Assembly: GCA_032718475.1 (NCBI GenBank)
Contig: JAUCBJ010001394.1
Location: forward strand, 1-49,108
Length of the DNA: 49,108 bases
Source of the DNA: Nemertoderma westbladi
Taxonomy: Eukaryota; Animalia; Xenacoelomorpha
Direction of reading: 5' to 3'
In this document: positions 36,623 to 39,545 of the stretch, in pieces
Numbering within the stretch: position 1 is the first letter of the stretch
Layout: each line of letters opens with the position of its first letter
Made by a program: the position numbers and the translations under genes
The notes under the pieces: model-generated
What the model was told of the DNA's origin: nothing
The model's input: only the letters and a program-made list of their open reading frames with translations
Database searches by the model: none

Positions 36623-36865
36623 GTTATAGTTGTGCGGAATCCGGAACGGGAAGGTCTTATCCGAGCCCGGACAATCGGGGCACAGGCCGCTTCTCGGGGG
36701 GAGGTGGTAATATTCCTTGACGCCCACTGCGAATGTCTACCGAACTGGCTGCCGCCATTGCTGACCCCCATAGCGGAAGATAGGAGAACCATCGTGTGTC
36801 CAGTCATAGATGGGGTGGATCCATTCGACTTCAAGTACAACCAGATTTGGTACAGTTGGAACCAG
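36623..36865 (+). CDS. GALNT7: GALNT exon 3 with DxH metal-binding motif
   Basis: ttcc[22 protein letters not shown]...FLDAHCE...WLPPLL...VCPVIDG...[21 protein letters not shown]; 243 nt using the first donor (3' boundary ambiguous because the donor is tandemly repeated). Confidence 0.92.
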
Positions 36866-39545
36866 GTAAGCAACCGGATTTGGTACAGTTGGAACCAGGT
36901 AAGCAACCAGATTTGGTACAGTTGGGACCAGGTAAGCAACCAGATTTGGTACAGTTGGAACCAGGTAACCAACCGGATTTGGTACAGTTGGAACCAGGTA
37001 AGCAACCAGATTTGGTACAGTTGGAACCAGGTAAGCAACCAGATTTGGTACAGTTGGAACCAGGTAAGCAACCAGATTTGGTAAAGTTGGGACCATGTAA
37101 GCAACCGGATTGGGTACAGTTGGAACCAGGTAAGCAACCAGATTTGGTACAGTTGGAACCAGGTAAACAACCAAATTTGGTACAGTTGGGACCATGTAAG
37201 CAACCGGATTGGGTACAGTTGGAACCAGGTAAGCAACCAGATTTGGTACAGTTGGAACCAGGTAAACAACCAAATTTGGTACAGTTGGGACCAGGTAAGC
37301 AACCGGATTTGGTACAGTTGGAACCAGGTAAGCAACCAGATTTGGTAAAGTTGGGACCAGGTAAACAACCAGATTTGGTAAAGTTGGGACCAGGTAAGCA
37401 ACCAGATTTGGTGCGAACCACCTCCTCCGTATCTTGGCTGATAGGCTGCACCGTTCCTGGGGGCGACCTTTCAGCACCACGATGGGCTGGGTCCGAACTC
37501 GAGTCCAGTTCGTGATAATTCACAGGGCCTCCCATTGTCTACGGGGCTTGCGGGTGAAGTGGAGAAGTGGGCAGGGGTTTGAGGACGGTGCTGGGCTGCC
37601 AAGCAGTATTTAGAACAGCATTGGAGCCATGGCTGTACTGGTAGGCCTACTGTAATACTTTTATTTGTTTTTATTTCTATATTATTTTAAATGTTGCTAG
37701 GATACACTGTGGAAACAGCTGATGGTGGGTTTGCTATAGTTTTTTTTTTTTTTTTTTTTTTTTTTTGTTTAATGTGCTACTATGTTTTTTTTATGTTAAT
37801 ATACTGGGTTTGCACCAGATTTGGTACAGTTGGGACCAGGTAAACAACCGAGATTTGGTACAGTTGGGACCAGGTAAACAACCAGATTTGGTACAGTTAG
37901 GACCAGGTAAGCAACCGGATTTGGTACAGCTGGAACCAGGTAAGCAACCAGATTTGGTAAAGTTGGGACCAGGTAAACAACCAGATTTGGTAAAGTTGGG
38001 ACCAGGTAAGCAACCATATTTGGTACAGTTGGAACCAGGTGAGCAACCAGATTTGGTAGGCCTACAGTTGGAACCAGGTAAACAACCAGAATTGGTACAG
38101 TTGGAACCAGGTAAGCAACCAGATTTGGTACAGTTGGAACCAGGTAAGCAACCACATTTGGTAGGCCTACTTTTTGAACCGGGTAAGCAACCAGATTTGG
38201 TACAGTTGGGACCAGGTAAGCAACCAGATTTGGTACAGTTGGAACCAGGTGAGCAACCAGATTTGGTAGGCCTACAGTTGGAACCAGGTAAACAACCGGA
38301 TTTGGTACAGTTGGAACCAGGTAAGCAACCAGATTTGGAACAGTTGGAACCAGGTAAACAACCAGATTTGGTACAGTTGGGACCAGGTAAGCAACCGGAT
38401 TTGGTACAGTTGGAACCAGGTAAGCAACCAGATTTGGTAAAGTTGGGACCAGGTAAACAACCAGATTTGGTAAAGTTGGGACCAGGTAAGCAACCAGATT
38501 TGGTGCGAACCACCTCCTCCGTATCTTGGCTGATAGGCTGCACCGTTCCTGGGGGCGACCTTTCAGCACCACGAGGGGCTGGGTCCGAACTCGCGTCCAG
38601 TTCGCGATAATTCACAGGGCCTCTCATTGTCTATGGGGCTTGCGGGTGAAGTGGAGAAGTGGGCAGGGGTTTGAGGACGGTGCTGGGCTGCCAAGCAGTA
38701 TTTAGAACAGCATTGGAGCCATGGCTGTACTGGTAGGCCTACTGTAATACTTTTATTTGTTTTTATTTCTATATTATTTTAAATGTAGCTAGGATACACT
38801 GTGGAAACAGCTGGTGGTGGGTTTGCTATAGTTTTTTTTTTTTTTGTTTAATGTGCTACTATATGTTTTTTATGTTAATATACTGGGTTTGCACCAGATT
38901 TGGTACACTTGGGACCAGGTAAACAACCGAGATTTGGTACAGTTTGGACCAGGTAAACAACCAGATTTGGTACAGTTAGGACCAGGTAAGCAACCGGATT
39001 TGATACAGCTGGAACCAGGTAAACAACCAGATTTGGTAAAGTTGGGACCAGGTAAGCAACCAGATTTGTACAGTTGGGACCAGGTAAACAACCGAGATTT
39101 GGTACAGTTGGGACCAGGTAAACAACCAGATTTGGTACAGTTGGGACCAGGTAAACAGCCAAATTTGGTACAGTTTGAACCAGGTAAACAACCAGATTTG
39201 GTACAGTGGGGAACAGGTAAACAACCAGATTTGGTACAGTTGGGACCAGCCAGGTAAACAACCAGATTTGGTACAGTTGGGAACAGGTTAGCAACCAGAT
39301 TTGGTACAGTTGGAACCAGGTAAGCAACCAGATTTGGTACAGTTGGGACCAGGTAAACAACCAGATTTGATACAGTTGGGACCAGGTAAACAACCAGATT
39401 TGGTACAGTTGGGACCAGGTAACAAATCAGATTTGGTTCATTCGTTCAACTGCCAGATTTGGTACACCTGGAACAAAGTAATCAACCAGATTTGGTACAG
39501 CTGGAACAAAACAATCATCCAGATTTGGTACAGTTAGAACCATGT
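36839..39545 (+). repeat. 33-bp exon-end/splice-donor minisatellite in three blocks (36839-37412, 37814-38504, 38893-39545)
   Basis: Unit aaccagatttggtacagttggaaccag|gtaagc = last 27 nt of exon 3 plus first 6 nt of intron 3. Confidence 0.96.
37413..38892. repeat. Two copies of a spacer of about 400 bp (37413-37813 and 38505-38892) separating the 33-bp blocks
   Basis: gcgaaccacctcctccg...atactgggtttgc near-identical, 1092 bp apart, each with a poly-T tract. Confidence 0.92.

What the first reader, a model, noticed from the sequence alone, without database searches (positions are those of the whole stretch)
36839..37084. Minisatellite made of the exon end plus splice donor: a ladder of 7 in-frame donors in the catalytic domain
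Seen: the 33-bp unit is exactly the last 27 coding nt of exon 3 plus GTAAGC. CAG|GTAA donors occur at 36866, 36899, 36932, 36965, 36998, 37031 and 37064, all phase 0, and the frame stays open ([11 protein letters not shown])n until TAA at 37082-37084; dozens more donor copies lie downstream. Donor 1 gives a loop length consistent with what I recall for GALNT10-type enzymes. Inference: either donor choice yields isoforms with 0-66 extra residues just before GAFDW (a VNTR-encoded splice ladder), or the spliceosome picks the first of many near-identical donors by an unexplained rule.
Basis: partly seen in the sequence, partly recalled or inferred. Interest (0 to 1): 0.85.

Follow-up and report, generated by a model that had tools for sequence, protein, structure and literature searches.

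The report
Silent splice-donor minisatellite in GalNAc-transferase gene
The end of one exon of a sugar-transferase gene, with its splice signal, is repeated about 55 times into the next intron, but the one assembled transcript uses only the first signal, so this is likely a harmless case of a known repeat type ("mirage"), notable mainly because a sample of other genes suggests about one splice donor in six in this animal carries such an array.

Summary
The array is real: 55 units of 33 bp (last 27 nt of exon 3 plus 6 intron nt), 49 AG|GTRA sites, seven in frame before the TAA. The isoform ladder is not supported. A 2,031-nt spliced contig (run X4) joins donor 1 directly to exon 4, and donor 1 gives the loop length of GALNT10. 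Minor use of later donors cannot be excluded, because contigs drop rare variants. The first-donor rule has a precedent: human F7 intron 7 and lancelet "mirage" minisatellites. In myosin, kinesin and ALDH exons not picked for repeats, 14 of 77 inferred donors (background 4.8%) and 2-3 of 80 acceptors were straddled by an array. Only 2 of the 14 give an open in-frame ladder, so the open frame looks like chance. The scan found this repeat type before on many other pieces of this genome. Verdict: ordinary locus, interesting genome.

The parts
15883..16290 (+). Exon 1, coding part (first ATG giving an open 596-aa frame)
   Evidence: the X4 contig length implies a start near 15761 (arithmetic)
20671..20904 (+). 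Exon 2 (Glycos_transf_2 start)
   Evidence: joined to exon 3 in X4 (loose end)
36623..36865 (+). Exon 3 (243 nt; DAH metal-binding motif); its last 27 nt are the exonic part of repeat unit 1
36839..37399 (+). Donor array block 1: 17 units of 33 bp; donor 1 (GT at 36866) is the one used; donors 2-7 in frame and open; TAA at 37082-37084
37414..37812 (.). ~400-bp dispersed repeat with a T run inserted in the array; 38 further matches among 40 scored candidates elsewhere in the genome
37813..38491 (+). Donor array block 2 (19 units, some with 6-nt insertions)
38506..38891 (.). Second copy of the dispersed repeat, part of a higher-order duplication (494 of 504 aligned bases identical)
38892..39553 (+). 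Donor array block 3 (19 units), most diverged at the 3' end
39771..39977 (+). Exon 4 (starts GAFDW; Glyco_transf_7C)
40116..41664 (+).
41658..41903 (+). Exon 5
42576..43028 (+). Exon 6 (ricin-B lectin domain, stop)

Best explanation
This is a junction-spanning ("mirage") minisatellite: the last 27 nt of exon 3 and the splice donor are repeated about 55 times into intron 3, the assembled transcript uses only the first donor, and the later donors are likely silent decoys passed over because the spliceosome likely picks the site nearest the exon. Shown: the anatomy, donor-1 and last-acceptor use in one spliced contig, normal loop length. Inferred: origin by tandem duplication of the exon end followed by slippage or unequal exchange, a later mobile-element insertion and block duplication; positional choice (first donor to emerge, or exon definition) as the rule; near-neutrality; the open frame over donors 2-7 being a by-product (9 of 11 codons are already coding sequence and 33 is a multiple of 3).
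For: Run X4, record of 2,031 nt: covers exon 3 (36621-36866) and exon 4 (39767-39980) at adjacent record positions 1025/1024; its loose ends carry bases unique to copy 1 and the true exon 5 start. No other X4 piece was laid on exon 4 (1 record laid). Donor 1 gives 9 residues between the F-x-Y tyrosine and the G of GAFDW, as in GALNT10 (2d7i); solved GalNAc-Ts span 8-13, donor 2 would give 20. 54 of 54 homologues score best with donor 1. Copies 6 and 7 are identical to copy 1 and in frame, so neither site strength nor nonsense-mediated decay can explain their absence from the main contig. No unusual RNA fold at the unit (5 of 5 folds, z +0.2 to -1.5). Both arrays of this gene resolve to the exon-proximal copy. 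Precedent: F7 intron 7, only the most upstream donor used; lancelet mirages do not disturb splicing. Identity to the exon copy falls along the array (rho -0.54 over 52 units). 14 of 77 donors in unrelated genes have such arrays, 11 of 14 out of frame.
Against: One transcript-like run only, recorded as 'DNA?', held as contigs that drop rare variants. X4 also holds array pieces at depth 18-65 (8 of its 17 laid records shown) against 937 for the mRNA, with variants that lie 1.0-1.4 kb into the intron in the assembly; their origin is unresolved and could include splicing from later donors. In human IFI6 and CBS two pseudo-donors are used besides the authentic one (as cited in PMC1557585). The rule of choice was not tested in this organism.
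Confidence: 0.85

Rival explanations
1. Minor leak: donor 1 dominates but donors 2-3 (up to 7) are used at a few percent, giving stable in-frame mRNAs with 11-66 extra residues beside the acceptor-peptide groove, as noise without function.
For: IFI6 and CBS precedents; donors 2-7 escape NMD; array-bearing pieces in X4; contigs cannot show rare forms.
Against: No X4 record joins an array copy to exon 4; F7 showed no leak in 50 subcloned products per transfection. Compatible with the best explanation if the share is small.
Confidence: 0.3
2. Functional isoform ladder: donor choice, or array length, tunes enzyme specificity by lengthening the loop before GAFDW.
For: Seven open in-frame donors; the junction lies in the region that forms the peptide-binding groove of GalNAc-T2 (Val255, Leu270, Phe280, Trp282; chain position 272 aligns to the exon 4 start).
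Against: Main contig uses donor 1; no homologue has a spacer as long as donor 2's (15-20 in 49 matches versus 16 for donor 1 and 27 for donor 2); in-frame periods are not enriched (3 of 14); stop variants recur freely in the array from copy 8 on.
Confidence: 0.05
3. Recursive (ratchet) splicing through the AG|GT copies.
For: Every unit of both arrays holds AG|GT; the intron 4 units have a pyrimidine tract before it.
Against: The donor units have no pyrimidine tract; introns are only 2.9 and 1.7 kb, whereas recursive splicing is known from very long introns (recalled); YAG is lost in 19 of 46 acceptor copies.
Confidence: 0.04
4. Assembly artefact.
For: Two laid runs may be the assembly's source; array length was not bridged by any record.
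Against: Array pieces with the same variants in 4 of 4 runs from 3 samples; copies diverge in an ordered way and enclose a genome-wide dispersed repeat.
Confidence: 0.02

Closest known systems
Human F7 intron 7 37-bp VNTR (Borensztajn et al. 2006, PMC1557585; seen: abstract, passages of introduction and results, whole discussion)
   Same: First monomer spans the exon-intron boundary; identical downstream donors; only the most upstream is used, including where later ones would keep the frame.
   Different: F7 has 5-9 copies with 4 exonic bases; here 55 copies with 27 exonic bases, six extra donors open in frame, and a second array on the next acceptor. Decoy competence was not tested here.
Lancelet 'mirage' minisatellites: Adh3, globins BflGb6 and BflGb9 (Ebner et al. 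2010, PMC3087553; seen: six passages)
   Same: Tandem copies of exon-intron borders at either end of an intron, 10-160 bp units, regular splicing kept, diverged copies at the cluster edge.
   Different: 3-6 units in BflGb6 versus about 50 here; the paper lists a few loci and gives no genome-wide rate in the passages seen; length instability was shown there and could not be tested here.
Human IFI6 (6-16) intron 2 and CBS intron 13 minisatellites; LMNB2, PDGF (known only through the introduction of PMC1557585; the IFI6 paper was not held)
   Same: Many reiterated donors (IFI6 25 pseudo-sites, CBS 15-20 repeats).
   Different: IFI6 and CBS use two pseudo-donors as well; no such use was seen here in one contig set.
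Polypeptide GalNAc-transferases, GALNT10/GALNT7 branch (PDB 2d7i, 6iwq)
   Same: Best PDB matches for exons 3 and 4; GT-A domain, DXH motif, ricin lectin domain; same loop length as GALNT10.
   Different: Gln instead of the Arg found before G-x-F/W-D-W in 49 of 49 homologue matches; intron in phase 0, one base from the phase-2 position in an own-genome paralogue.

Membership tests
Junction-spanning (mirage / F7-type) minisatellite | Tandem unit whose outermost monomer contains the authentic exon-intron boundary | tested here: met
Junction-spanning (mirage / F7-type) minisatellite | Splice signal reiterated inside the intron | tested here: met
   49 AG|GTRA sites; 27 of 46 decoy acceptor units with YAG
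Junction-spanning (mirage / F7-type) minisatellite | Regular splicing preserved in the main mRNA | tested here: met
   one spliced contig in one run, X4
Junction-spanning (mirage / F7-type) minisatellite | Homogenised copies with diverged units at the far edge | tested here: met
   mean 31.5 of 33 in the first 16 decoys, 29.2 in the last 17
Junction-spanning (mirage / F7-type) minisatellite | Length polymorphism between alleles or cells (VNTR) | not testable with these tools
   only short-read contigs; no record spans the array
Junction-spanning (mirage / F7-type) minisatellite | Decoys become active when the first donor is disabled | not testable with these tools
   needs a minigene experiment
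Alternative-donor ladder (IFI6/CBS type) | Transcripts spliced from downstream copies | tested here: inconclusive
   none among the X4 records laid on exon 4 (1 record) or the loose ends at the donor; contigs drop rare variants
Coding VNTR | Several units present in the mature mRNA | tested here: not met
   exon 3 end and exon 4 start adjacent in the contig
Recursive splicing sites | Pyrimidine tract + AG|GT inside a very long intron, with intermediates | tested here: inconclusive
   motif present only in intron 4 units; introns 1.7-2.9 kb; intermediates not testable
Polypeptide GalNAc-transferase (GT27) | Glycos_transf_2 + Glyco_transf_7C + C-terminal ricin-B lectin, DXH motif | tested here: met
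   activity not tested

The most novel reading that the evidence does not exclude
In this animal splice donors are hotspots of tandem amplification: about one donor in six seeds a kilobase-scale array that starts inside the exon (12 of 77 large arrays start in the last 100 nt of the exon, 3 of 77 in the first 100 nt of the intron, 1 of 80 runs across an acceptor in the same test), by a process tied to the exon-intron junction itself, and a strict exon-proximal rule keeps thousands of perfect decoys silent. The genome would be a natural many-locus test of positional splice-site choice, and open in-frame arrays like this one the cases free of NMD.
Probability: 0.35. Interest if true: 0.7.

Novelty: new member of a known kind. 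Interest (0 to 1): 0.33.

Why it matters
As a single locus it matters little: the same arrangement and the same outcome are described for human F7 and lancelet genes. It has two uses. First, copies 6 and 7 are identical to the real donor and in frame, so counting junction reads here measures pure positional preference without NMD; the next intron gives the mirror test for acceptors. Second, the sample of unrelated genes suggests that such arrays sit on roughly 18% of donors in this genome and far fewer acceptors. I found no genome-wide survey of this in five searches of the held library, which does not show that none exists. If the rate holds, it bears on how introns grow, how splice sites are chosen, and why this assembly is fragmented.

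Tried and rejected
No RNA holder was listed by the run search; X4 was treated as transcript-like because its share of words (0.49) equals the exon share and its contig joins exons. X4 has no cover on the unique intron stretches next to exons 3 and 4: not used as evidence, a hole proves nothing. RNA or DNA hairpins as cause of silencing or of instability: rejected, 10 of 10 folds within 1.6 s.d. of shuffles. Repeat imported from elsewhere: a DNA search found the unit only in this contig (25 matches; the search can miss common words). Longer exon homology in the tail copy near 39436: borderline, 248 of 5,000 shuffles score as well, not relied on. An alternative frame of the unit ending in Arg: rejected as evidence, any AG|G gives Arg. 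Loss of YAG in acceptor decoys near the exon (9 of 22 versus 18 of 24, p 0.035): cut point chosen after seeing the data and copies not independent, so a hint only. Pkinase and AMP-binding searches gave mostly intronless matches and were left out of the count; of the myosin, kinesin and ALDH matches 87 exon-like ones were kept, dropping full-domain single-exon matches, pieces in one long frame, duplicate repeat hits and a few unfetched places. My first regex for the loop caught 13 matches and was replaced (49 matches in 46 of 54 proteins). No fold of the isoforms was run. Supplements of the three papers were not opened.

Full report
Observation. The window is one whole contig (G000:C1394) of a 407-Mb animal assembly. 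It holds a six-exon polypeptide GalNAc-transferase gene on the + strand; all five introns are GT-AG and the spliced frame is 596 aa. Exons 2-4 match the catalytic Pfam families and exon 6 the ricin-B lectin; GALNT10 (2d7i) is the best solved match for exons 3 and 4. The unit at 36839-36871 is the last 27 coding bases of exon 3 plus six intron bases. Seven phase-0 donors precede the TAA at 37082-37084, and 49 AG|GTRA sites lie in the intron. There are 55 units in three blocks, separated by two copies of a dispersed ~400-bp repeat that matches 38 other places among 40 scored and was duplicated with its flanking units (494 of 504 bases identical). Similarity to the exon copy declines with distance (rho -0.54, 52 units). 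Array pieces occur in 4 of 4 runs laid, from three samples, so an assembly artefact is unlikely, though two runs may be the assembly's source and none spans the array.

Which donor is used. No run was on record as RNA, but X4 held 0.49 of the words of a stretch that is 49% exon, and it contains a 2,031-nt contig (depth 937) that covers exon 3 and exon 4 and not their flanks. Its loose ends are exon 2 before exon 3, exon 4 after position 36866, bases unique to copy 1 before exon 4, and the true start of exon 5 after exon 4. Record positions 1025 and 1024 put 36865 next to 39771, so no repeat unit is in this mRNA. It was the only X4 record laid on exon 4. The protein agrees: donor 1 gives nine residues between the F-x-Y tyrosine and GAFDW, as in GALNT10, with 8-13 in solved GalNAc-Ts; the wider spacer is 16 for donor 1 and 27-82 for donors 2-7, against 15-20 in 49 matches from 46 of 54 homologues; 54 of 54 homologues score best with the donor-1 form. 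The junction falls in the segment that forms the peptide-binding groove of GalNAc-T2 (three passages of PMC4432651), so long Trp/Tyr-rich inserts would more likely damage than tune the enzyme (inference). Against a clean verdict: contigs drop rare variants, and X4 also holds short array contigs at depth 18-65 with variants that lie 1.0-1.4 kb into the intron. They may be unspliced RNA, DNA, or products of later donors; I could not tell.

Intron 4 is filled by a second array (40116-41664, ~34 bp) copying the exon 5 acceptor: 46 decoy units, 27 with YAG, one in frame and open. The contig uses the last copy. So both arrays resolve to the copy nearest the exon. A 5'-to-3' first-come rule explains the donor but not the acceptor; pairing across the exon (exon definition) explains both (inference).

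Is the open frame special? Nine of the eleven codons are coding sequence already, so any such unit with a length divisible by three is likely open. To test this I took myosin, kinesin and ALDH matches from the same genome, not chosen for repeats, inferred splice sites by consensus and ran TRF. An array starts inside the exon and crosses the donor at 14 of 77 donors, in 12 of 30 contigs, against 81 of 1,705 intron control positions (p 1.5e-5, sites not independent); at acceptors 2 of 80 against 81 of 1,719 (one more acceptor case by hand check of phase, giving 3 of 80; donor versus acceptor p 0.001-0.004). Three of the 14 periods are multiples of three and two give open ladders, one with 13 extra donors in a myosin. 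For large arrays the 5' edge falls in the exon's last 100 nt at 12 of 77 donors and in later 100-nt bins at 0-4; when small arrays are included the first intron bin is as high as the exon bin (14 versus 15). Five intron-flanked paralogue exons matching exon 3 all have a junction repeat nearby: three at their own donor, one filling the intron from the previous donor, one abutting the acceptor; six paralogue exons matching exon 4 have none at their own borders. Splice sites in this sample are inferred, not RNA-checked, and 35% of the sampled DNA is tandem repeat.

Mechanism. Most likely the exon end and donor were duplicated in tandem, expanded by slippage or unequal exchange, took a mobile-element insertion and a block duplication, and persisted because the first donor wins (origin inferred, outcome shown in one contig). 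No special fold is needed or seen. Copies 6 and 7 equal copy 1 base for base and are in frame, so position is the only evident difference.

Comparison. Human F7 intron 7 has the same design, and mutagenesis showed that its pseudo-donors are functional but only the most upstream is used; IFI6 and CBS leak to two further copies, LMNB2 and PDGF do not (PMC1557585: abstract, passages, discussion). Lancelet 'mirages' are the invertebrate name for the same thing, at either intron end (PMC3087553, passages; lead from earlier notes). The locus meets the four defining features I could test; length polymorphism and decoy competence could not be tested. It is not a coding VNTR. Earlier unchecked notes describe many such arrays in this genome, including in-frame ones; they are leads, not support.

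Verdict. Real, correctly described, a new member of a known kind; isoform ladder improbable (functional 0.05, minor leak 0.3). The interest lies in the genome-wide rate and donor bias, for which five searches found no survey. Interest 0.33.

Noticed in passing
window 40116-41664: Acceptor array in intron 4; the last copy is used; YAG is kept in 18 of 24 distant and 9 of 22 near decoys. The unit also resembles the end of exon 4.
   Followed up: partly
window 36863-36865 and L006/L181 (G000:C1163): Gln replaces the Arg seen in 49 of 49 homologue matches before GAFDW, and the intron is phase 0 here but phase 2 inside the Arg codon in the paralogue: a one-base difference in intron position at the array-bearing donor; direction unknown.
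   Followed up: partly
L007 (G000:C5459, near 33232), minus strand: 55-bp donor array whose unit begins at an exon-internal GTGAGT, the same word as the donor: suggests microhomology seeding.
   Followed up: no
L150 (G000:C9136:136316-137827): Myosin exon end repeated 14 times with a 102-bp period and an open frame for 1,365 nt past the donor: a longer in-frame ladder than the one in the window.
   Followed up: partly
sample of 87 exons: Large arrays often end 0-200 nt before an acceptor (17 cases in two bins) but rarely cross it; may mark the remnant of originally short introns.
   Followed up: no
window 21822-29045: 7.2-kb array of 56 bp in intron 2 (129 copies) with a donor-like AG|GT in each unit but no adjacent exon found; further arrays at 12106-12868, 18440-18991, 43075-43767 and 146-bp arrays at 2891-9131.
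   Followed up: no
run X4 on window 36838-36904: Array contigs at depth 18-65 with mid-intron variants in a transcript-like run; origin unexplained.
   Followed up: partly
G000: Many kinases, kinesins, aldehyde dehydrogenases, AMP-binding enzymes and some GALNT paralogues have their whole domain in one open frame: an intron-poor genome with repeat-filled introns.
   Followed up: no
window 10870-11640 and 35500-36140: Reverse-transcriptase-like (LINE) fragments, upstream of the gene and in intron 2; label from recalled motifs, no family search run.
   Followed up: no
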